From contig CAYXZA010000005.1 in NCBI GenBank assembly GCA_964469605.1, positions 1 through 57,617 of the forward strand: a stretch of DNA of 57,617 bases, given 5' to 3'. The position numbers and the translations under genes were made by a program. The DNA comes from an uncultured Candidatus Saccharibacteria bacterium. Its GTDB lineage: Bacteria; Patescibacteriota; Minisyncoccia; Phycocordibacterales; DATDWN01. The notes below the pieces were generated by a model. It saw only the letters and a program-made list of their open reading frames with translations. It was not told the origin of the DNA and searched no databases. Shown here one piece after another: positions 385-39,516 of this stretch (its first letter is position 1; each line of letters starts with the position of its first letter).

Positions 385-846
385 TTACTTGTACGTCTTT
401 GCGAACGCGTCGGCGTCGATCAGGTAGGGTTCGCCTCCCATGTTCGAGCCGTCTTCGTCGCAGGTGTTGGCGATCATGCAGTCGGCGCCACCGGTCTGCG
501 GCGAACCCCACGAGGCCATGATCTCGATCGGCTTCCCGAACGGATTCACGATGGCTCTGCATGAGCCTTTGGCCTTGTAGACGCCGTCCTCGTTGGTTGC
601 CTCGTAGCAAGCGAAGAACTTCTTCTCGGAGATGATGTACTGCTCGCCGGAAGGGTTCGTCATGATCCAGTCGCCCGCCTGTGCGGTGTTAACCGTCTCC
701 TTCGCGCCGCCTTCGAGAGTCGTGGTGATCTCTTCGCCGACAACTGCTGGGCGAGCCTTCACCTGACCCTGCTTCTTGAACACGGTCGCGTTCGCGAGCG
801 CGCTCATGATTTCAGGTGCCTTGCGGTCGATCTTTTCGAGTGTCAT
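385..846 (-). CDS. Hypothetical protein, GC-rich orphan (153 aa)
   Basis: Complete ORF with SD aggagg 8 nt upstream of the ATG (855-860). Visibly GC-rich versus neighbours. The AGDWIMTNPSGEQYII segment faintly recalls small PGDYG-type domains; no confident family. Confidence 0.75.
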   Translation of the reverse strand: MTLEKIDRKAPEIMSALANATVFKKQGQVKARPAVVGEEITTTLEGGAKETVNTAQAGDWIMTNPSGEQYIISEKKFFACYEATNEDGVYKAKGSCRAIVNPFGKPIEIMASWGSPQTGGADCMIANTCDEDGSNMGGEPYLIDADAFAKTYK

Positions 847-962: not shown

Positions 963-1685
963 CTATTTATTAAGGTTTTTCTCCTCTTTTGGGCTATGTG
1001 AGACAATGAATTTTGCTCGCTCATATAACTCATCGTAAGTAAGAATTTCAATATTACGTGAATCTCTACGAAATAACTCAAAAGTCCGGAGTTTAATCTG
1101 TTTTATTTTCTCCGTTCCGCCGAATTGACTATCCGAGCCGATTATCAAAATACTTTTTGGATCAAGCGTTTTTTGCTGTATAAGTTCGCCTTCGTCACTA
1201 AAATTATTATTTGCATTAACTTCGCCTTTAATCTGCCAGCTCGCTTTTTGTTCCAAAATTTGTGACAAGGACTCAATCAACTCATCAGATAATTTCCAAC
1301 TGTTCGCTCGATTTTTACTATTTTCAAATAAAGGAGTACTTGGTTTTTTAATTTCAACTAACACAGTAAATTTATTACACTCCAAGAGTGAATCGCTGAT
1401 AGCCCCATCTCTCCCAGCTATATCTGCGGTTCCGACATGAGCTTCATTTTGTAAAATTCCTAGAAATCGATAATCAAGGCCGTAACCAAAAATCCATTCA
1501 TTGTTTTTGAAAAAGTGTTGCCACACTTTTTCCGGTTTGGTGTCCTTAATATTGTTTTCCGATCGGTATTTTTCGAGATAGTTACTTTCATGTAGTAACT
1601 TGTTAAAATTTCCAACTGCTTTTTCCGATAGCCAACGTTGATTATGTCTCGCGAAGTGATAATTCCGCTGAGGAATATCGCGAAG
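963..1685 (-). pseudogene. Shedu-like (SduA/DUF4263) PD-(D/E)xK nuclease domain gene, N-terminally truncated
   Basis: Matches my recollection of the DUF4263 layout: WQHFFKNNEWIFGYG, D-x-LLE...VLVEIKKP (D..ExK nuclease motif), LIIGS and ILTYDELYERA. The frame stays open upstream to 1685 with no ATG; the only start candidate is GTG at 1526. The variable N-terminal domain is missing. Confidence 0.6.
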
Positions 1686-20085: not shown

Positions 20086-21012
20086 CTACAAGGAACATTG
20101 TTGCGGAACGAAACCGGATGCCGTCCCGCAGCTCGCATCGACAATGCCAACGAAGAACGTGTCGAACCTGACCCCACCACTACTGAAGGACACGTCGAAC
20201 CTGACCCCACCACTGCCGAAGCGGAAGAATGGAGCGAGGCCGAAGTGAACATCAGAATCCGGATCGTCGAACTCGTCACCCGAGCAGTCGATCGACAGGT
20301 CGTTGTAGTCCTGTAAACGTTCTAGGTGAGTAAGAAGCATGATCCCGATCTCGAATGCACCAAGACCGAACTCCATTCCGTTGTCGATCATGATTTCACG
20401 TGCTCGGCGGACCGAGCGACCACGATGACGCAAACCGAACTGAGCAGCGACGACGAGGATGTCCTGATCCTTCTGCTCGTTTCCGAGCCTCTGGAACACC
20501 TCCATCTTCACCCTTGACTCATGAAGTTGCTGATCGTTGATCTGCCCCTCTTTCCAGTTGTAGAATTTGCCCTGACGCTGTAACTTCATCGCGTCGAGCA
20601 CCTTCTGAACTGCTTGAGTGTAAGTCGGCGCGATCGTCTGCCACTTAGGGATGGCGAACCATCCCTCAGCACCCACAGGAACTTCACGCTCGGCGAGTTT
20701 TTCGTTGGCGAACCCGATTTCGGGGAAGATCTTGCGCAGAATGTTGCACTGCTCCTTGATCGACTTTGGTTTCTTGTAGCCCGACAAGTAGCCGTGAGTA
20801 GACACTACTTCCTCATCTTTGAACTTGTTAGTGACCCGATTATTGGAGATGAAATCGGCGATGAGATCGGCGAGACCTGGACTGTCGTTGACCCACTGAG
20901 CTTCTTTTTCGGAAAGCCTTGCCTTGTTGTACGAGGCTTCGACGATCGACATAAACTCGAGACCTTTGGGGTCCCGTGAGGTGACTGCTGACGGGACCAA
21001 TGTTTTAAGCAT
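20086..21012 (-). CDS. GC-rich orphan protein (~308 aa) with C-terminal 11-aa tandem repeat
   Basis: Long ORF. SD aaggag abuts the first ATG (21021) but lies 9 nt from the second ATG (21012), so 21012 is preferred. The 21-nt core gtcgaacctgaccccaccact repeats at 20161-20181 and 20194-20214, giving SGGVRFD x2. Confidence 0.7.
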   Translation of the reverse strand: MLKTLVPSAVTSRDPKGLEFMSIVEASYNKARLSEKEAQWVNDSPGLADLIADFISNNRVTNKFKDEEVVSTHGYLSGYKKPKSIKEQCNILRKIFPEIGFANEKLAEREVPVGAEGWFAIPKWQTIAPTYTQAVQKVLDAMKLQRQGKFYNWKEGQINDQQLHESRVKMEVFQRLGNEQKDQDILVVAAQFGLRHRGRSVRRAREIMIDNGMEFGLGAFEIGIMLLTHLERLQDYNDLSIDCSGDEFDDPDSDVHFGLAPFFRFGSGGVRFDVSFSSGGVRFDTFFVGIVDASCGTASGFVPQQCSL

Positions 21013-21071
21013 CGGAACCATCTCCTTTCATGTGTTAGATTCGCCCTAACCGTTGCGACTCTTCTCTTTGT

Positions 21072-21130
21072 GAGACGAGCTTTTTAGGTCTTACTTAATG
21101 TATAAAATTAAGACTCAAAAAGCTCGTCTC
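21072..21130 (-). promoter_or_regulatory. Long 5'-UTR hairpin of CDS 20086..21012
   Basis: gagacgagcttttt (21072-21085) is the exact reverse complement of aaaaagctcgtctc (21117-21130). Inner gtctta/taagac pairing extends the stem. Confidence 0.55.
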
Positions 21131-21164
21131 AACAGTGATCTATAAAGAATTTAACGTGTATAGT

Positions 21165-32229: not shown

Positions 32230-32266
32230 AAAAAACCACTTTGAAAATTTTCCAAAGTGGTTTTTT
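32230..32266. terminator. Near-perfect palindrome / bidirectional terminator at the left edge of the GC-rich island
   Basis: aaaaaaccactttg (32230-32243) pairs with caaagtggtttttt (32253-32266). Confidence 0.55.
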
Positions 32267-32268
32267 AA

Positions 32269-32398
32269 TCAGCATTGAGCTACAAGCCAATAAAATGAAA
32301 GTGTTAATAAAAAAATAATGCTAGAGGAGAGAGATTTTAATCTAGCTCACATTATTTTTAATTTATTTTCACATTTATGACTAATAGCTCAATACTGA
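32269..32398. repeat. 14-nt inverted repeat pair flanking ~100 nt directly downstream of hammerhead 1
   Basis: tcagcattgagcta (32269-32282) versus tagctcaatactga (32385-32398), 13 of 14 complementary. Confidence 0.5.
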
Positions 32399-32412
32399 CT
32401 TTTTTTATTATA

Positions 32413-32465
32413 CCCTGTTTCGTTCTTTCGAACTCATCAGTCGAGATACACATCTCGAGACAGAG
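32413..32465 (-). ncRNA. Hammerhead ribozyme, type III (HHR-1)
   Basis: Minus strand: CUCUGUC UCGAGAU-GUGU-AUCUCGA CUGAUGA GUUC-GAAA-GAAC GAAA CAGGG. All core nucleotides are present. GUC cleavage triplet, predicted cut between 32459 and 32458. Stem III 6 bp, stem I 7 bp, stem II 4 bp with GNRA loop. Confidence 0.85.
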
Positions 32466-32557
32466 GAGGTATCAAACCAAGACACCTCCAGTTAAACCAA
32501 GGGAACAGTAGTTGGACTGTTTCCAGAACCTGCACCTGCCAACTCAGGATTAAAGAA

Positions 32558-33667
32558 CTACTTCTTGTTGCGTGCACCCCACTTAGAAGCGAGAGCCTCG
32601 AGCGAAACGGACAACTTAACTGACTGTTTTGGTATCGATTGAGCTACCTGCGGATTATGTAACCGTCTAGCAAGGGTAACTTCAACCTCTGCAACAACAG
32701 CATTGGCGTTAGTTATCCATTCCACGCACTCTTCTTTCGTTTCTGGAATGGAAGCAAAGTAAAAACTATACAACTTATCCAGCAGACTAGATTCAATCCC
32801 GCATGAGGCGTACGTGTCGTAGAGACTCCTGACATGATTTTGGACTTTTTCAGCCTCGGAAAGAATATTTTCGATTTCACGCCGATCTCTCGCTTTAACT
32901 TTGGCTTTTTCCAGCTCAACCTGTGCATTGTTGAAAGCTGTCTCGGCTTGCATACGGACCCGAAACCACTCTGTCTTCCATATGATCGAATCCGAAGACC
33001 AAGACCTGGAAGCAGTCAAGGTTCCAAAAGCAAAAAGGTCTTCGCCTGTCATCACGCACCTGCCGTAAACGACAGTGATGATGTCAGAGAGGACTGTTTT
33101 GTCGGTGATCTCCGTTGGAACAGCAATGACTGGCCTATCAATCCAGCGACTCCACTGCCCTTCATTCAGCCGACTCTTCATCGATTGCTTCAGAGCAACA
33201 ATGTCGCTTCCTTCTGCAAGTGCCGACCACGAGGTCGACGACTTGAGAACGATGTGAACTGCGCGTCCGCCAGGGAGCTTCACTCCCTCATTTGGCAATT
33301 CATTCCAGCAGTTGCTAGAAATGAACTCATCACCGAGCGTTACTTGCGGAAGTCTCGGCGTGTCGCAGTACGGTTCACGATACTCCACTGGCACCACCTT
33401 GCCGAGAACAATGATCGAATCGGGATTCATTTCCCGAGTCAGATTCACCAACCCGACATCAAGCGCCGGAAGCCGGAGTAAATCGAGATTGGAAATTGTC
33501 GCGCAAGAGATCGCACCTTTGAGACGCGATCCGAGCCACAGTTTCCATTCCTCGTTCGTCATGACGGGGAAAACGATTTCCCCCGCGCGATTGTTCCACT
33601 TCCGAGCCTCCATCTGGATGGCCCGGTTGGCGGCGATAACCGCCTGGATAGTTTCAAAATTCGTCAT
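32558..33667 (-). CDS. GC-rich orphan protein (369 aa) with C-terminal coiled coil
   Basis: SD gaggag 5 nt upstream of the ATG, preceded by conserved leader copy A. No family recognised. Confidence 0.75.
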   Translation of the reverse strand: MTNFETIQAVIAANRAIQMEARKWNNRAGEIVFPVMTNEEWKLWLGSRLKGAISCATISNLDLLRLPALDVGLVNLTREMNPDSIIVLGKVVPVEYREPYCDTPRLPQVTLGDEFISSNCWNELPNEGVKLPGGRAVHIVLKSSTSWSALAEGSDIVALKQSMKSRLNEGQWSRWIDRPVIAVPTEITDKTVLSDIITVVYGRCVMTGEDLFAFGTLTASRSWSSDSIIWKTEWFRVRMQAETAFNNAQVELEKAKVKARDRREIENILSEAEKVQNHVRSLYDTYASCGIESSLLDKLYSFYFASIPETKEECVEWITNANAVVAEVEVTLARRLHNPQVAQSIPKQSVKLSVSLEALASKWGARNKK

Positions 33668-33671
33668 TTTA

Positions 33672-33764
33672 TCTCCTCAAGCAAGGGAACATCATGTCCC
33701 ACCCCTGCTCGGCCCAATTAAGGACTTTCCATCTTGCGACGGACTTTGTAGAGCTGGGTGCTCG
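33672..33764 (-). promoter_or_regulatory. Conserved structured leader, copy A (upstream of ORF369)
   Basis: ~93 nt, near-identical to 36247-36340. Three hairpins: gagca..(u)gcuc; ccgucGCAAga(u/c)gg; and agcagggg/cccuugcu, which ends 1 nt before the SD. Confidence 0.6.
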
Positions 33765-33918
33765 AGAAAATAATTGGAAATTTTTAAGTTTCCACACGAA
33801 CTCCTATCAGCTTTCGAATTGATTCGTTAGCTGAATAAGAGAGGCAACAACATGGTCGCCTCGTAAACCTAAACCATGCACCCCTGTATATAAAATATGA
33901 AGAGGGTGCGAAAGAACA

Positions 33919-34281
33919 TCAAAGGAACAGTTGAAGGGTGTCCTCTAGCCCCCGAAGTCTGAACTTAAATATGTAACCATCACTGATCTGTATGAGTTCA
34001 GACTCCTCAATGGTATCGCGGGGAAACTGCCGAAGAAGGAATCTTTCCACCTCCAGCAACATTTCCTCTCTCGTCAGGCGAGTAAGCAGTCTCTCTCTCA
34101 TCTCTTTCCACTCTTCAACAAAGAAGAGTGACCTGAGATGATCAGAATACTCCTCGGCGATTTTTTCACTACTAGGAACTTCTCCCGTTTTTTTAGTCCA
34201 AAACCACAATTCGCCAAAACAAAAGCGAAAGTATTCCCAGACCAGAAACGGTAGAAGGAAGACGTACTTTACAAGCCACAT
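33919..34281 (-). CDS. Small orphan protein (120 aa) with hydrophobic N-terminus
   Basis: SD aggag upstream; starts 9 nt after the helicase stop. N-terminal hydrophobic/aromatic segment. Confidence 0.6.
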   Translation of the reverse strand: MWLVKYVFLLPFLVWEYFRFCFGELWFWTKKTGEVPSSEKIAEEYSDHLRSLFFVEEWKEMRERLLTRLTREEMLLEVERFLLRQFPRDTIEESELIQISDGYIFKFRLRGLEDTLQLFL

Positions 34282-34289
34282 CTTTTCTC

Positions 34290-36242
34290 CTAATAGATAC
34301 TCATTTGTCCCGCGAGCCAGGAACAGAAAACGTCTGCCGCTTTGGGATGAGTCGGCGTAGGCACGATCTCTTCTTTGATTTTGGAACCATTGAAGAAAAC
34401 ATGCTGATTTGAAACAACCGAATCTTGAATTGGATCAAACCAAAGATCAACATCTTCAAACCTAACCAGTTGAGGAGCGATCTCCATCAACCACATCGGA
34501 TCAACCTTTGTAGCCATGCGAACGAGCCGCAGAGTCATGGTACCACCGCGACGAGTCTTGATTTCAAGATCGAATGGCAGTCCAACGATCCAATCGCCAG
34601 ACCTCACCACCGACTCCCGAGCAAGCTGCCGATCGGTATCATCCCCATTTCGCCACCGACCGTAGTCGTTGCAGTAGAGGTGATCCACCATTCCGGCGCA
34701 AACAGCCTTCAGGATATTATCCCTCTTACCGCTCGACCGAAAATTACGAACTTTGTCACGCAACGCTTCCGCGAGGTGGCGACGCTTCTCCTTTGCTTGG
34801 AAGAAGGCTCTGACGAAGATGCCGTTGTCGACCATCACGTCCTTCTGCATGTTCTCAGCCGCTTTCCATACTGCAAGCTGAGCCATGAGGTCTGACGAAT
34901 CCTCGGTGCCAATGAGACTCCTCCACTTGGGAGTCTCCCATTCGCTCTTCGGACGAGCAGTGATTTCTCCCTGCTCGAGAATGGCAGCGATCGTTACAAC
35001 GTCGTCCACCACTCCCAGCCGATCGGCTTCTACCACCATCCGTGCAAACTGCACGGAGAGTGGCAAACGCGCGACTTGCTTACCGATTTGAGTAACGGCA
35101 CCAGTTTCCGAAAGACAACCGAGCGCCTTGAGTGCACGCTTGGCTTCGTGGATCTCGCTTTTCTTGGGCTGATGGAAGAAGTCAAGCTTCTCCATATCAA
35201 ACCCCGCTTCAGCGAGACGCAGAACTGTCTGATCAAGCCGAGAACGGAGAATTTCCGCTACCGGGAAATCAGGGCGATCGTATGCCGGACACATGTCCAC
35301 ATAGATGCCTGGCTTCGTGCGACCAGCGCGACCTTTGCGCTGCTTGGAGTCGGCTAACGAAATCGGTTTCAGATAAAGTCCTTCGACTCCATCCACCACC
35401 TCCACTCGCCGTTCCATTCCGCCATCCACCACCGCATCGATGTCGTCGATCGTGACACTTGTTTGCGCTACGTTCGTCGATACGACGCACTTGGCTCGCG
35501 GGTAGCGACGAAAAGCTTTCGCCTGTTCGTGGCTATCTAACTCGCCGTGAAGCGGGAGGACTTCAGCCGACACACCCGAACCCTGAATGATTTGGATGGT
35601 TTCGCCGATTTCCTTTTTACCTGCTTCAAACACAAGGACGTTGCGTCCTTGCTGAAGCAGAGCAATCGCTTCAGTTGCTGTCTTTGTCGTGGTCGGTCGC
35701 TGTTCCGTCACCGGAAACAAACAACCTGGCACAGATATGATCGGTGCGCCATCGAAGAACATCGAAAGCTTTTCGGCTTCCAAAGTGGCACTCATGAGCA
35801 CCACCTTAAAATCGACACCCCGAGACAGCATGAGCTTAGCCCATGCAACCAGAGTCTCGATATTGATGTTCCACTCGTGTACCTCGTCGAGGACGAGGAT
35901 CTGGTGCTTGCCCGCACCCATCAGTTCCCGCACAAGTGCGAGACCATCAGTGCAAAACAAGCAACGAGTCCACTCGCTGTCTTTCCGCTCCATTGCGGTG
36001 CGGAAGCCAACAATCAAGCCAAGATCCTCACCCCATTCTTCAGCTACCCGTTCAGAAACCGTACGAGCAGCGAGACGACGCGGCTGGGTGACAACCAAGT
36101 CATACCCCGCCTCGAGCAGGTATTGTGGCACTTGTGTGCTTTTTCCCGCTCCGGTTTCGGCTGTGATGACCACGACCGCGTTTTCCTTGATCAACTTTAG
36201 GATCTGATCCTTGAAGTTAGCGATGGGTAACGTTGTATTCAT
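34290..36242 (-). CDS. DEAH/RHA-family helicase (HrpA/HrpB-like, compact 650 aa)
   Basis: Motif I AETGAGKST, Ia TQPRRLAA, II LDEVHE, III SAT, V TNVAQTSVTI, VI QRKGRAGR, followed by HA2-like and OB-like C-terminal regions. Confidence 0.9.
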   Translation of the reverse strand: MNTTLPIANFKDQILKLIKENAVVVITAETGAGKSTQVPQYLLEAGYDLVVTQPRRLAARTVSERVAEEWGEDLGLIVGFRTAMERKDSEWTRCLFCTDGLALVRELMGAGKHQILVLDEVHEWNINIETLVAWAKLMLSRGVDFKVVLMSATLEAEKLSMFFDGAPIISVPGCLFPVTEQRPTTTKTATEAIALLQQGRNVLVFEAGKKEIGETIQIIQGSGVSAEVLPLHGELDSHEQAKAFRRYPRAKCVVSTNVAQTSVTIDDIDAVVDGGMERRVEVVDGVEGLYLKPISLADSKQRKGRAGRTKPGIYVDMCPAYDRPDFPVAEILRSRLDQTVLRLAEAGFDMEKLDFFHQPKKSEIHEAKRALKALGCLSETGAVTQIGKQVARLPLSVQFARMVVEADRLGVVDDVVTIAAILEQGEITARPKSEWETPKWRSLIGTEDSSDLMAQLAVWKAAENMQKDVMVDNGIFVRAFFQAKEKRRHLAEALRDKVRNFRSSGKRDNILKAVCAGMVDHLYCNDYGRWRNGDDTDRQLARESVVRSGDWIVGLPFDLEIKTRRGGTMTLRLVRMATKVDPMWLMEIAPQLVRFEDVDLWFDPIQDSVVSNQHVFFNGSKIKEEIVPTPTHPKAADVFCSWLAGQMSIY

Positions 36243-36246
36243 TTAG

Positions 36247-36340
36247 TCTCCTCAAGCAAGGGGAATTTCTTTCCCACCCCTGCTCGGCCCAATTAAGGAC
36301 TTTCCGTCTTGCGACGGACTTTGTAGAGCAGGGATGCTCG
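36247..36340 (-). promoter_or_regulatory. Conserved structured leader, copy B (upstream of helicase)
   Basis: Same three-hairpin arrangement as copy A. The third hairpin's loop differs completely, while its 8-bp stem is retained. Confidence 0.6.
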
Positions 36341-36364
36341 GAAAACAAACTGAAGCACAATTTT

Positions 36365-36413
36365 CTGTTTCGTTCTTTCGAACTCATCAGGGTAAGTACG
36401 CACTTACCGACAG
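36365..36413 (-). ncRNA. Hammerhead ribozyme, type III (HHR-2)
   Basis: Minus strand: CUGUC GGUAAGU-GCGU-ACUUACC CUGAUGA GUUC-GAAA-GAAC GAAA CAG. Core and stem II are identical to HHR-1. Stem I is entirely different in sequence but still 7 bp. Predicted cut between 36409 and 36408. Confidence 0.8.
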
Positions 36414-36508
36414 TGAGGAGTTTTGCAATTTACCTTTTGCAGGTACTCCTCAAACCTTTTGAACCATAGTAATTATTTATGAGTCGCTACCACAAACGAC
36501 TACACCGA

Positions 36509-37054
36509 CTACTGATGGATGGTGTGTGAGCAGAATAAACCATCGGGAGCTTTTTTCAGTTCCTTAAGGTCTCTCGCCACCCCCCAACCAGCTTCGCTGG
36601 TACGACCCAGTAGATAGGACATCTGCTGGGCACTGAGAGGGTAAAATTGAACTCCCACATCAACACTTTTTTTCTCCCGACCTCCTTCAAAAGTGGGAGC
36701 TTGATACTCTTTGTATTCATGAGAGTACCACGCCGGACCATTGTTTCCATCCCACTGATGTACACCATCACTCAAACGGACAGTGTCCACCTTGAGACGA
36801 AAGTTCAGATAGACCCTTCCGCGTTTGACCGTGATTGAGTCGCAGTACGAGAGTTCCCAATTAGTGGGCGTGGCCTCAAACTCTTCTTTTTTGCCAGGGC
36901 GGCTTAACAGCCACTCTGACAGAGTTTTCCCTTTCACGGCGGTGAACCGCTGGGAAGCGGGCAGTGGCATACTTTTTTCCATCACCTTGACAAACTTTGC
37001 CACCACGGCGCGGGCGCGGTGAGAAAAAGGAAACTCACAAATTGATTCATACAT
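36509..37054 (-). CDS. GC-rich orphan protein (181 aa)
   Basis: Complete ORF with SD gtgagg upstream; no family recognised. Confidence 0.7.
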   Translation of the reverse strand: MYESICEFPFSHRARAVVAKFVKVMEKSMPLPASQRFTAVKGKTLSEWLLSRPGKKEEFEATPTNWELSYCDSITVKRGRVYLNFRLKVDTVRLSDGVHQWDGNNGPAWYSHEYKEYQAPTFEGGREKKSVDVGVQFYPLSAQQMSYLLGRTSEAGWGVARDLKELKKAPDGLFCSHTIHQ

Positions 37055-37102
37055 ACAAACCTCACTTCGCCGTTTATCGCCCGGCCGGCGGAATTTCCCT
37101 CA

Positions 37103-37157
37103 GTACAGAGGGCAAATTGTTAATCAATATTATTGATTAACAATTTGCCCTCTGTAC
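37103..37157. repeat. Perfect 55-bp palindrome (27-bp arms, 1-nt centre)
   Basis: gtacagagggcaaattgttaatcaata t tattgattaacaatttgccctctgtac, located 49 nt upstream of the ORF181 start codon. Confidence 0.95.
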
Positions 37158-37234
37158 ACTATCTATCTATAGCTAAACTTTTTATTCAGTCTTCCAAATC
37201 AACGATTCTTTTAAAAATCACAAACTTAGAAGAT

Positions 37235-37263
37235 GAGCCGAGTGCAAACCATGAACTCGGCTC
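37235..37263 (-). terminator. Hairpin terminator after the 23-codon ORF
   Basis: gagccgag/ctcggctc stem, followed on the minus strand by a U-containing tail. Confidence 0.5.
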
Positions 37264-37337
37264 GTGAACCTAAACCATGAGACAAAGAGTCAGCTCTGTC
37301 TCGAAAGAACATTACCCACTGACTTGGGATTAAAAAT

Positions 37338-37409
37338 CTACTTGGACTTTGCAGCCAAAGCGTCCTGGCGGGATAGACAAACTACCCCGTTAACGACGTA
37401 AAGAGTCAT
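37338..37409 (-). CDS. Possible 23-codon micro-ORF (MTLYVVNGVVCLSRQDALAAKSK)
   Basis: SD aaggag 9 nt upstream of the ATG. Very short, so coding status is unproven. Confidence 0.3.
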   Translation of the reverse strand: MTLYVVNGVVCLSRQDALAAKSK

Positions 37410-37532
37410 TTTGTTGATCTCCTTTAAACCTATTCTCAAATATATTTCATGCTTTGTGGAACAGAAATATATAAACAATCCAGGCCCACTGTCTTGCAAC
37501 ATGCGCCCGTGCCAATTGTGCCAATCGAGAGA

Positions 37533-37712
37533 TTACTTTTTCTTCAAATTGGCCACCACCGTGACGGCGAACCGCGGATCGTGACGGAGAGCATTGAGCC
37601 CCGCCACGACTGCGAGAGGGGCACGCCCCTCGCGAGCCATCATCCTGATGGATTGATTGTTCAGAACCGCCGGGCGACCCGGCGTCGGGTAGACTTGATT
37701 ATTGGTATTCAT
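37533..37712 (-). CDS. Small GC-rich orphan protein (59 aa)
   Basis: Start at MNTNNQ with SD aaggag 10 nt upstream. The longer 108-aa ORF-track version has no SD and runs through hairpin-rich sequence. Confidence 0.55.
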   Translation of the reverse strand: MNTNNQVYPTPGRPAVLNNQSIRMMAREGRAPLAVVAGLNALRHDPRFAVTVVANLKKK

Positions 37713-38327
37713 GATAGATAATCTCCTTTTTCTCCTCGATTTTACCCTCGAGGCGGGTTTGTACTTTAGGGATTTTGCAACCCCTCTTTCCGACACTAAA
37801 CTTATCAATATATACTGTCGGAGAAGAGGAATAACATTGCAGTCTGTGTTTACACACAAATTATTCTACGTTTTCCTTGCCCGTCATAGCTTTACGCGAC
37901 GTCGGACTTAACTTCTCTATTCAATTATCAAAGATCTTCTTATCCTCCTTCCTCTTTTTGATTAGCGAAGACATTCTTGGAAGCAATGACTGGTTTAGTT
38001 CCATTCCTTCCAAACGATGTCCTAACTTGTGGTTAGTATCGGTTGATTTATAGAAATGAACCCACATAAGATGTGCATTAAATTGTTTATTTCTTCCTCT
38101 CTCCTCTTACCACGCTTTCGGCCGTCGGTCACCGTCTGTAATATCTTTCGATAATCCAGAACAGAGATGGAGAACAATTTAATATCTATCTCCTTGTAAA
38201 AAAACCAGGTGGAACGTCTCTTACGAGCTTCCTATAACTCTCTCCTCATTGAGAGAAGTGGAGAGGCGACTTTGTGTAATAATTTAATTCACATCCACAC
38301 TTCTTTTAACAAGATGTTTACAATTGA

Positions 38328-38381
38328 TTTTGAAAACAAAACAGACCATTAGCTCCTTGAGAAGAGCCAATGGTCTGTTTA
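38328..38381 (-). terminator. Intrinsic terminator inside the long untranslated tract
   Basis: acagaccatt/aatggtctgt plus gctc/gagc inner stem (38341-38378), followed on the minus strand by uuuguuuuc. Confidence 0.6.
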
Positions 38382-38520
38382 CAACGTTGGTTGTTTGATG
38401 ACCGAATACTTATACTACATTTATATACAATAGTATATTTCAGAACATCAAGACTCTCTCCTCTAAAAATTGTCTTAATTATGTTGTTATTTAAATGAAC
38501 CTAAACCTTTTTAATCTTAC
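38382..38520 (-). ncRNA. Candidate small RNA (with its terminator ~190 nt in total) from the consensus promoter at 38527-38555
   Basis: Lies between the predicted TSS (about 38520) and the terminator hairpin at 38341-38378. Only a 2-codon ORF. Confidence 0.35.
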
Positions 38521-38526
38521 TCTTTA

Positions 38527-38555
38527 ATTATATCATATTGATATAATAATGTCAA
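38527..38555 (-). promoter_or_regulatory. Consensus sigma70 promoter
   Basis: Minus strand: TTGACA (38555-38550), exactly 17 nt, TATAAT (38532-38527). Confidence 0.7.
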
Positions 38556-38575
38556 GCACTTTTTAACATACTTTT

Positions 38576-38612
38576 AAAGACCTTAAAATTACTTTATAAT
38601 TTTAAGGTCTTT
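38576..38612. terminator. 16-bp perfect hairpin downstream of the HTH gene
   Basis: aaagaccttaaaatta (38576-38591) pairs with taattttaaggtcttt (38597-38612). No clean U-tail. Confidence 0.45.
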
Positions 38613-38717
38613 AAAAACCACCTTTCAAGGATTTTATTTAGGCTACCTAGTGGACAAAGCTAAAACTGAAACAATAAAAACGAAAGCCCAACCAAGGTCG
38701 TGCCTCGCATCGGGTGT

Positions 38718-39155
38718 TTAGTTTTTTATAGATAGAGCCTTTTTAGCTGTTTCAAACAGTAGAACCTCAAACTGTTTCCCATTAAGACAGCGAAGTTGAC
38801 GCAAAAACCCATCGAAAACCAACAACACAAGATAATCATTGAGATTCCTGCAGTCTCCTTTTTGACGAAAACCTTCAATATGTCCATGTAACGGAGTTAT
38901 TTGTTCCAGAGGAAGTACCAACAGATCATCAACCAACTTCTGAACCACTTTCATTCCCGAATGATGTCCAATAAGTAAGTAGAGATTACGAAATACTATT
39001 GGTTCAGGGAATTTCTCATCATTAATCCATTCCTGAATCAATTCCTCTCTTACACCTAAAGCAGTTGCTATTTGACACATGGAAAACACCATTGCCTTAC
39101 AAAATTCATAGACGATTAATTCAATTTCTCGGGAAAAATAACTTCTCATGTCCAC
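38718..39155 (-). CDS. Putative helix-turn-helix DNA-binding protein (145 aa)
   Basis: SMCQIATALGVREELIQEWI looks like an HTH (excisionase/AlpA/MerR-like). The rest is unrecognised. Confidence 0.5.
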   Translation of the reverse strand: MDMRSYFSREIELIVYEFCKAMVFSMCQIATALGVREELIQEWINDEKFPEPIVFRNLYLLIGHHSGMKVVQKLVDDLLVLPLEQITPLHGHIEGFRQKGDCRNLNDYLVLLVFDGFLRQLRCLNGKQFEVLLFETAKKALSIKN

Positions 39156-39442
39156 ACCTTTCTATTTACATTTCTACCATACTCAATTAGTGAATTTAAA
39201 GCATAATAGTTTCTTGCAACAAAAAACTTCCTGTTCAATCTTTTTTGGATGAAATTTTATTTTACACAACCTAGAAAACACTATGGTTAAATTTGTAAAC
39301 TCACTTTATTTACCATGGTTTACTCACCTAACTAGCCTCTAGCAAAACAATATAAGCTCGATTTGTTCCAAATCTAACACAGACAACATAATTTACCTAC
39401 CACTGGTCACACAAAAACTATCTTTTAGTAAAATTTTATCTG

Positions 39443-39516
39443 CGCGGCTGACCGGACTTGAACCGGCGACCTCTCCCGTGACAGGGGAGCATTCTAACCA
39501 GCTGAACTACAGCCGC
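39443..39516 (-). tRNA. tRNA-Asp (anticodon GTC)
   Basis: Acceptor GCGGCTG/CAGCCGC, anticodon stem CTCCC/GGGAG with loop CTGTCAC, T-arm GCCGGTTCAAGTCCGGT. Confidence 0.85.

What the first reader, a model, noticed from the sequence alone, without database searches (positions are those of the whole stretch)
32269..39442. GC-rich ~7 kb island at the tRNA-Asp 3' flank: DEAH helicase plus orphan genes and dense RNA structure, with no integrase
Between an AT-rich palindromic terminator (32230-32266) and tRNA-Asp (39443-39516), composition switches visibly to GC-rich coding sequence. All genes are on the minus strand. In transcription order they are: an HTH protein, a consensus promoter with small RNA, a ~600-nt untranslated tract, a 59-aa ORF, a 23-codon micro-ORF, the 55-bp palindrome, ORF181, HHR-2, leader, the DEAH/RHA helicase (650 aa, motif II DEVH), ORF120 (hydrophobic N-terminus), leader, ORF369 and HHR-1. 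Apart from the helicase and a weak HTH call, none of the proteins carries a motif I recognise. No integrase, transposase, capsid or terminase gene is present. HrpA/HrpB-like DEAH helicases are not a component of the anti-phage systems I know of. Pairing one with self-cleaving ribozymes and repeated structured leaders suggests an RNA-centred accessory module. That could be a mobile element, a satellite, or a defence or counter-defence system of a new kind.
Basis: partly seen in the sequence, partly recalled or inferred. Interest (0 to 1): 0.8.

Follow-up and report, generated by a model that had tools for sequence, protein, structure and literature searches.

The report
Ribozyme-punctuated split HrpA helicase operon
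A foreign, GC-rich block of about 6 kb in an AT-rich (probably Patescibacteria) genome carries an HrpA-type RNA helicase split into two genes, cut out of its transcript by hammerhead ribozymes and fronted twice by one uncatalogued structured RNA leader; it is a variant of known things, not a new defence system.

Summary
The block 32405-38560 is 45-57% GC in a ~31% GC genome. Third-codon GC is 0.50-0.68 in its genes and 0.14-0.19 in host genes. All genes are on the minus strand. Two type III hammerheads, a duplicated ~110-nt leader, a 55-bp palindrome and a consensus promoter are all present. An independent contig is 99.99% identical, so it is not a chimera.

ORF369 is not an orphan. It is the separately encoded C-terminal region of an HrpA-like helicase. 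It always lies just downstream of the helicase, it is fused to it in many relatives, and its fold matches only full-length E. coli HrpA, a helicase that splits collided ribosomes. This pair is widespread in Patescibacteria. Nothing supports a defence system or a satellite.

Hammerheads that flank single genes were already described in prophages (Perreault 2011). The same ribozyme subtype occurs in phage contigs.

Three things appear to be new:
- the split-HrpA cargo;
- a five-helix leader, absent from Rfam, that pairs the ribosome-binding site and precedes both halves;
- a hairpin-plus-hammerhead module that marks the ends of the DNA shared with a relative.

ORF181, ORF120, the 59-aa ORF and ORF145 remain unexplained.

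The parts
32405..32475 (-). HHR-1: a type III hammerhead with its conserved 5' flank. The predicted cleavage is after GUC, near 32459. It marks the 3' edge of the foreign block.
   Evidence: Rfam RF00008 gives 43.3 bits, E 5e-7. The custom model R2 gives 85.9 bits. The core CUGAUGA...GAAA and the GUC site are intact. Covariation is shown. Homology with L005 ends less than 10 nt beyond it.
32476..32557 (-). 3' UTR of ORF369. It contains the stable hairpin GGAGGUGUC...GAUACCUCC, which ends a few nt before the HHR-1 cleavage site.
   Evidence: The hairpin was folded. An equivalent hairpin precedes all 22 hammerheads of this subtype that I examined.
32558..33667 (-). ORF369: the separately encoded C-terminal region of an HrpA-like helicase. 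It has an alpha+beta part followed by long helices, and the conserved tail L-x-A-L-x-x-K-W-G-A-R.
   Evidence: Homologues lie immediately 3' of the helicase in every locus examined, or are fused to it. It is 31% identical over residues 7-369 to P0023 residues 654-1010. The AF2 model has pLDDT 88. Foldseek gives one hit below E 0.1, chain 9gft_B, at E 9e-6.
33662..33775 (-). Leader copy 2, directly 5' of the ORF369 start codon. It is a five-helix RNA in which the Shine-Dalgarno GAGGAG is paired in the outer helix.
   Evidence: R1 gives 115.8 bits. The MFE is -44.9 kcal/mol, z -4.6. It is 89% identical to copy 1.
33790..33880 (-). Relic of a hairpin-plus-hammerhead module. The hairpin GAGGCGACC...UUGCCUC is kept. 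The core is mutated (CUGAUAGGAG) and stem II is broken. It is probably inactive.
   Evidence: Read by eye from the sequence and its alignment to HHR-leader units of L005 and L001. The hairpin was picked up by the terminator scan at 33862-33841. Model R2 does not detect a hammerhead here.
33919..34281 (-). ORF120: an orphan with a hydrophobic N-terminus, lying between the helicase stop codon and the hammerhead relic. It is absent from related loci.
   Evidence: One search gives the ORF. tblastn finds no match in relatives. No family or PDB match was found. Its GC3 of 0.50 matches the block. It is called as a gene in L102.
34290..36242 (-). DEAH/RHA helicase core (RecA1, RecA2, winged helix, ratchet, OB), HrpA-like.
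   Evidence: NCBIfam TIGR01967 HrpA gives E 7e-94 over profile positions 64-715. Pfam finds DEAD, Helicase_C, HA2_N and HA2_C. PDB sequence matches are HrpA 76-723 at E 2e-70 and Prp22/DHX8 at E 1e-73 to 8e-78.
36237..36350 (-). Leader copy 1, directly 5' of the helicase start codon.
   Evidence: R1 gives 117 bits. The MFE is -47.9 kcal/mol, z -5.1. Relatives of the motif sit at the same place in L101, L021, L024, L012 and L006. No Rfam family matches it.
36355..36425 (-). HHR-2: a type III hammerhead. The predicted cleavage is near 36409, so the ribozyme stays on the 5' end of the helicase mRNA.
   Evidence: Rfam gives 42.6 bits, E 8.5e-7. R2 gives 82.7 bits. It is preceded by the hairpin GAGGAGU...AACUCCUC.
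36509..37054 (-). ORF181: an orphan. Its only homologue is also flanked by hammerheads.
   Evidence: It has one homologue, P0294, at 42% identity. On contig L100 the order is HHR, 333-aa gene, HHR, ORF181-like gene, HHR.
37103..37157 (.). Perfect 55-bp palindrome in an AT-rich stretch. It lies where a hammerhead would be expected, after a hairpin relic at about 37230-37280.
   Evidence: See (I1, D10). It is unique in the window. Its function is unknown.
37322..37407 (-). 23-codon micro-ORF plus the sequence after it. Its last codons and 3' flank resemble the end of ORF369 and its 3' UTR, so it may be a relic of another cassette end.
   Evidence: Repeat families D4 and D10 and the sequence. tblastn gives no significant protein-level match, so this is a weak inference.
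37533..37712 (-). 59-aa ORF, GC3 0.68, with a Shine-Dalgarno sequence. Function unknown.
   Evidence: No family hit was found for the longer 108-aa reading of this ORF.
38339..38555 (-). Consensus sigma-70 promoter (TTGACA, 17 nt, TG-TATAAT), a ~180-nt structured RNA and a strong intrinsic terminator. This is the probable operon promoter with an attenuator-like 5' element.
   Evidence: One search gives the promoter and terminator. The fold has z -4.9. The whole element is conserved upstream of the leader and helicase in L101, with compensatory changes in the terminator stem.
38718..39155 (-). ORF145: possible HTH protein next to tRNA-Asp. Its composition is intermediate, so membership of the block is doubtful.
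   Evidence: GC3 is 0.315. No family reaches E 0.05; the only PHROG matches have E about 0.07. The HTH call rests on reading the sequence only.

Best explanation
The block is a horizontally acquired operon whose composition has not yet drifted towards that of the host. Its conserved core is a two-gene, split HrpA-type DEAH/RHA RNA helicase.

Shown:
- The 650-aa protein is the complete helicase core.
- ORF369 corresponds to the C-terminal region that, in E. coli HrpA, binds the stalled and the collided ribosome and is required for splitting them.

Inferred:
- The two proteins assemble and act on ribosome-mRNA complexes as HrpA does.
- Transcription starts at the consensus promoter at 38555. It passes an attenuator-like RNA with a terminator and runs through the block.
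- Each hammerhead is preceded by a stable hairpin. Self-cleavage therefore leaves the upstream RNA ending in a hairpin plus a 2',3'-cyclic phosphate. The downstream RNA begins with a 5'-OH and the folded ribozyme.
- This insulates the cistrons from their transcriptional context and probably stabilises them.
- In this window HHR-2 and HHR-1 would release a ~3.95-kb RNA carrying the helicase, ORF120 and ORF369. The middle ribozyme, present in relatives, has decayed here.
- Both halves of the enzyme carry the same ~110-nt leader, whose outer helix pairs the Shine-Dalgarno sequence. Their translation is therefore gated by one RNA structure, which would keep the two halves in step.
- What opens the leader is unknown. 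Candidates are the helicase itself, a ligand, a protein or temperature.
For: Split HrpA:
- The helicase and partner are adjacent or fused in all 17 clade loci I examined.
- The partner profile matches residues from about 620-900 onwards (mostly 650-830) of many 895-1545-aa proteins.
- ORF369 aligns with P0023 residues 654-1010.
- The ORF369 model matches only 9gft_B, and not the core-only HrpA chains 6zww or 8po6.
- The fused model aligns over 1149 columns with 9gft_B, against about 620-870 columns for every other hit.
- The role of the HrpA C-terminal region is taken from PMC11419001.

Foreign origin:
- GC3 is 0.50-0.68 in the block and 0.14-0.19 in the host.
- The cassette has a higher GC than its flanks in all 17 relatives examined (by as little as 0.001 in L024), and by more than 0.05 in most.

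Hammerheads:
- Their position is conserved around the same genes in L001, L005, L011, L020 and L021, and around the ORF181 homologue in L100.
- Covariation is shown.
- All 22 are preceded by a hairpin.

Leader:
- It is duplicated in the window, in L001 and in L005, and found 5' of the helicase in five more loci.
- The folds have z scores of -2.8 to -5.1 with the Shine-Dalgarno sequence paired.
- L020 has a different leader, but it is again duplicated and again pairs the Shine-Dalgarno sequence.

Promoter element: it is conserved in L101.

Not a chimera: L102 is 99.99% identical over 20.9 kb.
Against: - No cleavage, transcript or protein data exist.
- Both hammerheads score below Rfam's gathering score.
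- ORF369 has no detectable sequence similarity to the E. coli HrpA C-terminal region. The link rests on fold, on position and on fusions. Global TM-scores are low (0.27-0.36), which is plausible for a flexible multi-domain protein but is not proof.
- Leader covariation is modest. Only 3 of 21 modelled pairs show double changes, and the helix-4 changes were read by eye.
- The block also holds four unexplained ORFs and a palindrome that this account does not need.
- The cassette is GC-richer than its flanks in almost every host. That could reflect a constraint rather than repeated transfer.
- No empty site or transfer mechanism was found.
Confidence: 0.62

Rival explanations
1. The block is a remnant or cargo of a phage (moron cassettes). 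It would have been delivered by a Patescibacteria phage and left behind after loss of the phage backbone. The hammerheads would be the phage's way of cutting long transcripts into single-gene mRNAs.
For: Perreault et al. 2011 found that clustered hammerheads flanking single genes are typical of prophages. The same ribozyme subtype, including the preceding hairpin, flanks a GATase-GGACT gene beside Sak and exonuclease genes in IMG/VR contigs L104 and L105. Helicases 45-56% identical occur on IMG/VR contigs of 90-430 kb. The block lies next to a tRNA gene.
Against: The block has no phage structural, replication or integration gene. The partner protein is absent from IMG/VR and from GenBank phages. 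The only GenBank phage matches to the helicase are ordinary hrpA or hrpB genes at 27-33% identity. The IMG/VR helicase loci have neither hammerheads nor the leader, and they may be misclassified cellular contigs. In Kaiserbacteria the pair sits among housekeeping genes next to the 16S rRNA gene.
Confidence: 0.2
2. The hammerhead-bounded unit is itself a mobile gene cassette. It would move either by recombination between hairpin-plus-hammerhead modules, or through the excised RNA, whose 5'-OH and 2',3'-cyclic phosphate ends are substrates for RtcB-type ligation into a circle.
For: DNA homology between the window and L005 begins about 50 nt 5' of the HHR-2 cleavage site and ends less than 10 nt 3' of HHR-1. 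The genes outside that span differ. The foreign composition stops exactly at HHR-1. The two L001 hammerheads differ at 1 of 71 positions. Genomic contexts differ among loci. Stem III of the two window ribozymes shares the core pairs CUGU/ACAG, so a ligated circle could rebuild a ribozyme.
Against: No reverse transcriptase, integrase or RtcB gene is in the block. The window's foreign block extends 2 kb beyond HHR-2. L011 and L020 share an upstream ~175-aa gene with the hammerhead-free locus L006, so synteny there crosses the ribozyme. Perreault et al. looked for circular or spliced products from clustered hammerheads and found none. The shared boundaries could simply reflect conserved non-coding modules.
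Confidence: 0.1
3. The block is an anti-phage defence or counter-defence system built around a helicase.
For: Helicases are common in defence systems. The block is accessory and compositionally foreign. The same window holds a Shedu SduA_C-like gene 31 kb away.
Against: PADLOC gives only short generic matches to the Cas3 or Hachiman helicase motifs, with E values of 3e-6 to 0.05, and no effector. There is no nuclease, toxin or sensor domain. The partner protein is an HrpA C-terminal region. In other lineages the pair lies among housekeeping genes.
Confidence: 0.04
4. The block is an assembly chimera or contamination.
For: The composition switches sharply.
Against: An NCBI metagenome contig (JACCDT011027591.1) is 99.99% identical over 20.9 kb spanning both junctions. 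Two further similar places were reported. The left junction lies inside a continuous transcription unit that ends at a host-type terminator.
Confidence: 0.02

Closest known systems
E. coli HrpA, a DEAH/RHA helicase that splits collided ribosomes (PMC11419001; PDB 9gft, 6zww)
   Same: The helicase core is complete and matches HrpA residues 76-723. The fold of the C-terminal region and the order of domains agree.
   Different: The enzyme is encoded as two genes, 650 aa and 369 aa. The total is about 1020 aa against 1300. It has no N-terminal 3-helix bundle, since it starts at profile position 64. The C-terminal part shows no sequence similarity to HrpA. The middle domain is variable or deleted. 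It scores below the NCBIfam equivalog cut-offs. No function has been tested.
Clustered hammerhead ribozymes flanking single genes in prophages (Perreault et al. 2011, PMC3088659)
   Same: Several same-strand hammerheads bracket individual genes of one transcription unit. The cargo varies between loci. The same ribozyme subtype is found in phage contigs.
   Different: No phage genes are present here. The cargo is a split housekeeping-type RNA helicase. Each ribozyme is coupled to a 5' hairpin. In two positions it is followed by a conserved translation leader. The host lineage is Patescibacteria.
Synthetic ribozyme insulators such as RiboJ (named from my own knowledge, not tested here)
   Same: A self-cleaving hammerhead placed 5' of a cistron removes the upstream context and leaves a defined, structured 5' end.
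   Different: This is a natural element, not an engineered one. It is paired with a 3'-end hairpin for the upstream RNA. This is an analogy of mechanism only.
Autoregulatory ribosomal-protein leaders and riboswitch-type 5' leaders that sequester the Shine-Dalgarno sequence
   Same: It is a conserved multi-helix 5' UTR in which the ribosome-binding site is paired.
   Different: No Rfam family matches it. The ligand or binding protein is unknown. It is present twice in one operon, before both halves of one enzyme.
Retrozymes (eukaryotic hammerhead-bounded elements that make circular RNA; PMC4918200)
   Same: A unit is bounded by two same-strand type III hammerheads, and its excised RNA would have ends that can be ligated.
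   Different: This unit is protein-coding and about 4 kb long. It has no LTRs and no target-site duplications, and no reverse transcriptase is known for it. No circular RNA evidence exists.

Membership tests
Hammerhead ribozyme, type III (Rfam RF00008) | Conserved catalytic core (C3-U4-G5-A6-N7-G8-A9, G12-A13-A14, the A15.1-U16.1 pair and an H17 cleavage nucleotide) | tested here: met
   Both copies read CUGAUGA...GAAA with a GUC cleavage site and paired positions next to the core.
Hammerhead ribozyme, type III (Rfam RF00008) | A three-way junction with stems I and II closed and stem III open, supported by covariation | tested here: met
   Of 16 pairs, 11 show compensatory change and 95.5% of cells are paired. 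None of 500 shuffles reaches this value, and the slid controls give 30-52%.
Hammerhead ribozyme, type III (Rfam RF00008) | A score at or above Rfam's gathering threshold (48.5 bits) | tested here: not met
   The scores are 43.3 and 42.6 bits, E 5e-7 and 8.5e-7. The shortfall comes from the 6-nt loop 1 and the short GAAA loop 2, not from the core.
Hammerhead ribozyme, type III (Rfam RF00008) | Self-cleavage activity | not testable with these tools
   This needs in vitro transcription or RNA end mapping.
HrpA (bacterial DEAH/RHA helicase with a ribosome-binding C-terminal region) | A DEAH/RHA core made of RecA1, RecA2, winged helix, ratchet and OB domains | tested here: met
   The model of the fused relative matches HrpA and Prp43 cores with TM-scores up to 0.67 when normalised by target length.
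HrpA (bacterial DEAH/RHA helicase with a ribosome-binding C-terminal region) | An HrpA-type C-terminal region (alpha+beta domains plus a helical Hook) | tested here: inconclusive
   The fold evidence is positive: Foldseek E 9e-6 to 9gft_B only, and 1149 aligned columns for the fused relative. No Pfam, HMM or hhalign similarity was found, and the global TM-score is low.
HrpA (bacterial DEAH/RHA helicase with a ribosome-binding C-terminal region) | The NCBIfam equivalog cut-off (TIGR01967, 722.75 bits) and a single ~1300-aa polypeptide | tested here: not met
   The score is 315 bits. The enzyme is encoded as 650 aa plus 369 aa. I therefore call it HrpA-like and split, not an HrpA equivalog.
HrpA (bacterial DEAH/RHA helicase with a ribosome-binding C-terminal region) | Binding and splitting of collided ribosomes | not testable with these tools
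   This needs a biochemical assay.
Prophage-type clustered hammerheads (Perreault 2011) | Two or more same-strand hammerheads bracketing single genes or short gene blocks | tested here: met
   This holds in the window and in L001, L005, L011, L020 and L100.
Prophage-type clustered hammerheads (Perreault 2011) | A prophage or integrase neighbourhood | tested here: not met
   No phage or integrase gene is in the block. Only the ribozyme subtype is shared with phage contigs.
tRNA-linked integrative genomic island | An integrase, and a direct repeat of the tRNA 3' end at the far boundary | tested here: not met
   No integrase was found. The last 22 nt of tRNA-Asp has no second copy even with up to 3 mismatches.
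tRNA-linked integrative genomic island | Foreign composition, and absence from close relatives | tested here: inconclusive
   The composition is clearly foreign. No relative with an empty site could be found, because the look-ups returned only the same genome.
Known anti-phage defence systems (PADLOC-DB) | A match to a system's signature proteins | tested here: not met
   Only partial helicase-motif matches were found (best Cas3, E 2.9e-6 over about 50 residues), plus a chance-level JetD match.
Any curated RNA family, for the leader (Rfam 15) | A covariance-model match | tested here: not met
   Nothing matches at E <= 10 in the 8.5-kb scan. On the leader alone only chance hits appear, at E 1.6-1.8.

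The most novel reading that the evidence does not exclude
The hairpin-plus-hammerhead module is more than an mRNA-processing signal. In this reading it is the boundary of a portable gene cassette, and Patescibacteria and their phages exchange such cassettes. Here the cassette carries a split ribosome-rescue helicase together with its own uncatalogued regulatory leader. The excised 3.95-kb RNA, with a 5'-OH and a 2',3'-cyclic phosphate, could circularise. That would make this a prokaryotic, protein-coding counterpart of retrozyme-like elements. My evidence does not exclude this. The homology breakpoints with L005 and the composition switch coincide with the ribozyme modules. No step of such a cycle has been shown.
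Probability: 0.1. Interest if true: 0.85.

Novelty: new variant of a known kind. Interest (0 to 1): 0.55.

Why it matters
The biological role of bacterial hammerheads has been unresolved since they were found in large numbers in 2011. This family gives a compact, recurrent and comparatively simple case to test. The cargo has a predictable activity. The ribozymes sit at fixed positions. Each ribozyme has a coupled 3'-end hairpin. Close relatives exist with two ribozymes, with three, and with none.

The work also shows that an HrpA-type helicase, recently shown in E. coli to split collided ribosomes, is widespread in Patescibacteria as a split or fused protein with a highly diverged C-terminal region. 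That bears on how these reduced-genome bacteria rescue stalled ribosomes.

The ~110-nt leader is conserved across several Patescibacteria lineages, pairs the ribosome-binding site, has no match in Rfam 15 and turned up in none of my literature searches. It is duplicated before both halves of the enzyme. It is therefore a candidate new cis-regulatory RNA whose trigger can be sought experimentally.

Tried and rejected
- Sequence-level link of ORF369 to E. coli HrpA. hhalign of A1 against HrpA was confounded by one fused member and gave E 0.069 on the helicase part. A cleaned HMM against HrpA found nothing. Pfam on all 24 family members gave no DUF3418 hit. A profile search of the PDB gave only coiled-coil noise.
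- Leader pattern in IMG/VR. The three hits (L017-L019) are chance matches inside GC-rich coding sequence.
- Relics of a second helicase or partner copy upstream of ORF181. tblastn with 292 family proteins found nothing significant.
- ORF181 against the ~175-aa gene found upstream of the helicase in L006, L011 and L020. They are unrelated.
- Orphans ORF181, ORF120, the 59-aa/108-aa ORF, ORF145 and the 54-aa ORF. Pfam, PHROGs, NCBIfam and PADLOC gave no hit with E below 0.05. PDB sequence searches of ORF145, ORF181 and ORF120 found nothing.
- Empty site. Exact-protein look-ups of flanking host genes returned only the same genome, or nothing.
- Host taxonomy from cluster names. No names were returned.
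- Literature. No paper links hammerheads with the candidate phyla radiation, or HrpA with Patescibacteria.
- The metagenome scan with the helicase alignment used generic DEAH motifs. Most of the 80 loci were ordinary HrpA or HrpB genes at about 30% identity. Only L020-L032 were useful.

Full report
**1. The observation**

The window is about 31% GC. From about 32400 to 37800 the GC content is 0.45-0.575, and from 37800 to 38400 it is 0.375-0.385.

The difference is not an effect of amino-acid content. Third-codon-position GC is 0.575 in the helicase, 0.549 in ORF369, 0.504 in ORF120, 0.522 in ORF181 and 0.683 in the 59-aa ORF. Nine host genes across the window have 0.14-0.19. ORF145, next to tRNA-Asp, is intermediate at 0.315.

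tRNA-Asp lies at 39442-39516.

An independent NCBI metagenome contig is 99.99% identical over 20.9 kb that span both junctions. An assembly chimera is therefore very unlikely.

Pfam, PHROGs, NCBIfam and PADLOC find no integrase, transposase, capsid or terminase. The 3' end of the tRNA is not repeated anywhere in the window.

**2. The hammerheads are real**

Rfam's type III model matches 32412-32466 and 36362-36416 at 43.3 and 42.6 bits, E about 5e-7 to 9e-7. This is a little below the gathering score of 48.5. Both cores are intact.

Loci that encode close relatives of the helicase carry the same ribozyme in the same places:
- L001: one before the helicase and one after the partner.
- L005 and L020: one before, one between and one after.
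- L011 (Komeilibacteria): one before and one after.
- L021: one before.

On seven copies, 11 of 16 base pairs show compensatory changes and 95.5% of cells are paired. No shuffle and no slid control comes near these values.

A third module, between ORF120 and ORF369, survives in the window only as a relic. Its hairpin is kept, its core is mutated and its stem II is broken. My model does not detect it.

**3. The helicase and ORF369 are one split HrpA-like enzyme**

The 650-aa protein is a complete DEAH/RHA core. It matches NCBIfam HrpA at E 7e-94 over profile positions 64-715. It also matches the PDB chains of HrpA and of Prp22, DHX8 and Prp43 at E about 1e-70 to 1e-78.

ORF369 has no family hit. 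Its homologues nevertheless sit immediately downstream of the helicase in every locus examined. A profile search finds 416 clusters, and many of these are the C-terminal part of 895-1545-aa proteins.

ORF369 aligns end to end with residues 654-1010 of one such fusion.

Its AlphaFold model (pLDDT 88) has a single hit below E 0.1 in the PDB. That hit is full-length E. coli HrpA bound to a collided disome, chain 9gft_B (E 9e-6). The core-only HrpA crystal chains are not hit, so the match lies in the C-terminal region.

The model of the fused relative aligns with 9gft_B over 1149 columns. Every other hit aligns over only about 620-870 columns.

In E. coli, the C-terminal region binds the stalled and the collided ribosome and is required for splitting them (PMC11419001).

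I found no sequence-level similarity between ORF369 and the E. coli C-terminal region. Homology of this part therefore rests on fold, on position and on the fusions.

**4. A conserved leader absent from Rfam**

A ~110-nt sequence directly 5' of the helicase start codon recurs, 89% identical, directly 5' of the ORF369 start codon. It is duplicated in the same way in L001 and L005.

A covariance model built from these six copies finds diverged versions at exactly the same place in L101, L021, L024, L012 and the Kaiserbacteria locus L006. Each ends at the helicase start codon. Three of these five loci (L101, L012, L006) have no detected hammerhead.

The fold has five parts:
- an outer helix that pairs the Shine-Dalgarno GAGGAG with an upstream UCUYGRGC;
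- the helix CCCUGCYC / GRGCAGGG;
- a variable hairpin, often with a GNRA loop;
- a short hairpin GUCRC / GYGGC;
- a hairpin GGGA / UCCC.

Single-sequence folds give z scores of -2.8 to -5.1. Covariation is modest. Three of the 21 modelled pairs show double changes, and further changes in helix 4 were read by eye.

No Rfam family matches the leader.

L020 has a different leader. It is again present before both genes and again pairs the ribosome-binding site. What is conserved is therefore the logic: one gate for both halves.

**5. The hairpin-plus-ribozyme module**

In all 22 hammerheads of this subtype that I examined, a stable hairpin of unrelated sequence ends 4-6 nt before the cleavage site.

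Cleavage would leave the upstream RNA ending in a hairpin plus a cyclic phosphate. The downstream RNA would begin with a 5'-OH and the folded ribozyme. I infer that this insulates and stabilises each cistron. That is an inference, not a result.

**6. The rest of the block**

ORF181 has one homologue. On its contig the order is hammerhead, 333-aa gene, hammerhead, ORF181-like gene, hammerhead. ORF181 therefore belongs to the same kind of ribozyme-punctuated array.

Upstream of ORF181 lie the perfect 55-bp palindrome, a hairpin relic, a 23-codon ORF whose end resembles the end of ORF369, and the 59-aa ORF. None of these is explained.

The consensus promoter (12 of 12 positions, with an extended -10) at 38555-38527 is followed by a ~180-nt structured RNA and a strong terminator. 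This whole element is conserved in L101 directly upstream of the leader and helicase, with compensatory changes in the terminator stem. I therefore take it to be the operon's own promoter and attenuator. This places the right edge of the block near 38560.

**7. Mobility and origin**

The cassette has a higher GC than its flanks in all 17 relatives examined, by more than 0.05 in most. Genomic contexts differ between loci.

DNA homology between the window and L005 starts about 50 nt 5' of the HHR-2 cleavage site and stops less than 10 nt 3' of HHR-1. The genes outside that span are unrelated. This fits exchange of ribozyme-bounded units. It is equally compatible with conserved non-coding modules.

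Two facts argue against a simple cassette. In L011 and L020, synteny with the hammerhead-free locus L006 crosses the upstream ribozyme. In the window, the foreign block extends 2 kb beyond HHR-2.

The same ribozyme subtype flanks a GATase-GGACT gene in true phage contexts. This matches the description by Perreault et al. of clustered hammerheads around single prophage genes.

The partner protein is absent from IMG/VR and from GenBank phages. Helicases 45-56% identical occur on large IMG/VR contigs, but without ribozymes or the leader.

**8. Verdict**

The sequence features are confirmed. The reading 'new kind of defence system or satellite' is not supported. The core is a horizontally acquired, split HrpA-like helicase operon processed by hammerheads.

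It is a new variant of two known things: clustered gene-flanking hammerheads and HrpA. It adds an uncatalogued leader RNA and a suggestive, unproven cassette-like boundary. Four small ORFs and the palindrome remain unexplained.

Noticed in passing
window 20086-21021 (-) and 21065-21138: A second foreign-looking insert. It is an orphan 311-aa gene with GC3 0.66, against about 0.15 in the host. It has its own TTGACA / TATTAT promoter and a ~74-nt palindrome just upstream. It has no Pfam hit and no hammerhead.
   Followed up: partly
window 385-846 (-) and 963-1526 (-): A PGDYG-domain gene with GC3 0.81 lies next to a gene resembling the C-terminal domain of Shedu SduA (Pfam E 4e-29). This may be a defence locus at the edge of the window, unrelated to the finding.
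   Followed up: no
L006 10001-16758 (Kaiserbacteria contig): The helicase (793 aa) and a 735-aa partner lie directly upstream of the 16S rRNA gene. The leader is present and no hammerhead is. This hints at a link to ribosome function or biogenesis in that lineage.
   Followed up: partly
L020 566-658 and 2848-2900: This relative uses a leader of different sequence. It is again duplicated before the helicase and the partner, and it again pairs the Shine-Dalgarno sequence. One of its three hammerheads has A6 changed to G in the core (CUGGUGA).
   Followed up: partly
L100 893-2168: The ribozyme-punctuated array that holds the ORF181 homologue also encodes a P-loop protein and a 62-aa ORF with a weak Csx3 match, upstream of the first hammerhead.
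   Followed up: no
L104 9996-12452 and L105 7775-9944 (IMG/VR): In phage contigs the same hammerhead subtype brackets a fused GATase / gamma-glutamyl cyclotransferase gene. This gene lies next to genes for a Sak annealing protein and an exonuclease.
   Followed up: partly
window 38572-38616: A perfect 20-nt inverted repeat lies immediately upstream of the -35 box of the consensus promoter and downstream of ORF145. It could be an operator, a terminator for ORF145, or the edge of the acquired block.
   Followed up: no
L109-L115 (IMG/VR contigs of 90-430 kb): Helicases 45-56% identical to the window's occur on very large contigs classed as viral. The L110 neighbourhood is mostly ORFans plus an RNase H gene. 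It is unclear whether these are huge phages or misclassified small cellular genomes.
   Followed up: partly
window 32476-32500 and 36426-36455 (-): The hairpins before both hammerheads end in CCUCC or CUCCUC, which resembles the anti-Shine-Dalgarno end of 16S rRNA. This may be chance in GC-rich stems.
   Followed up: no
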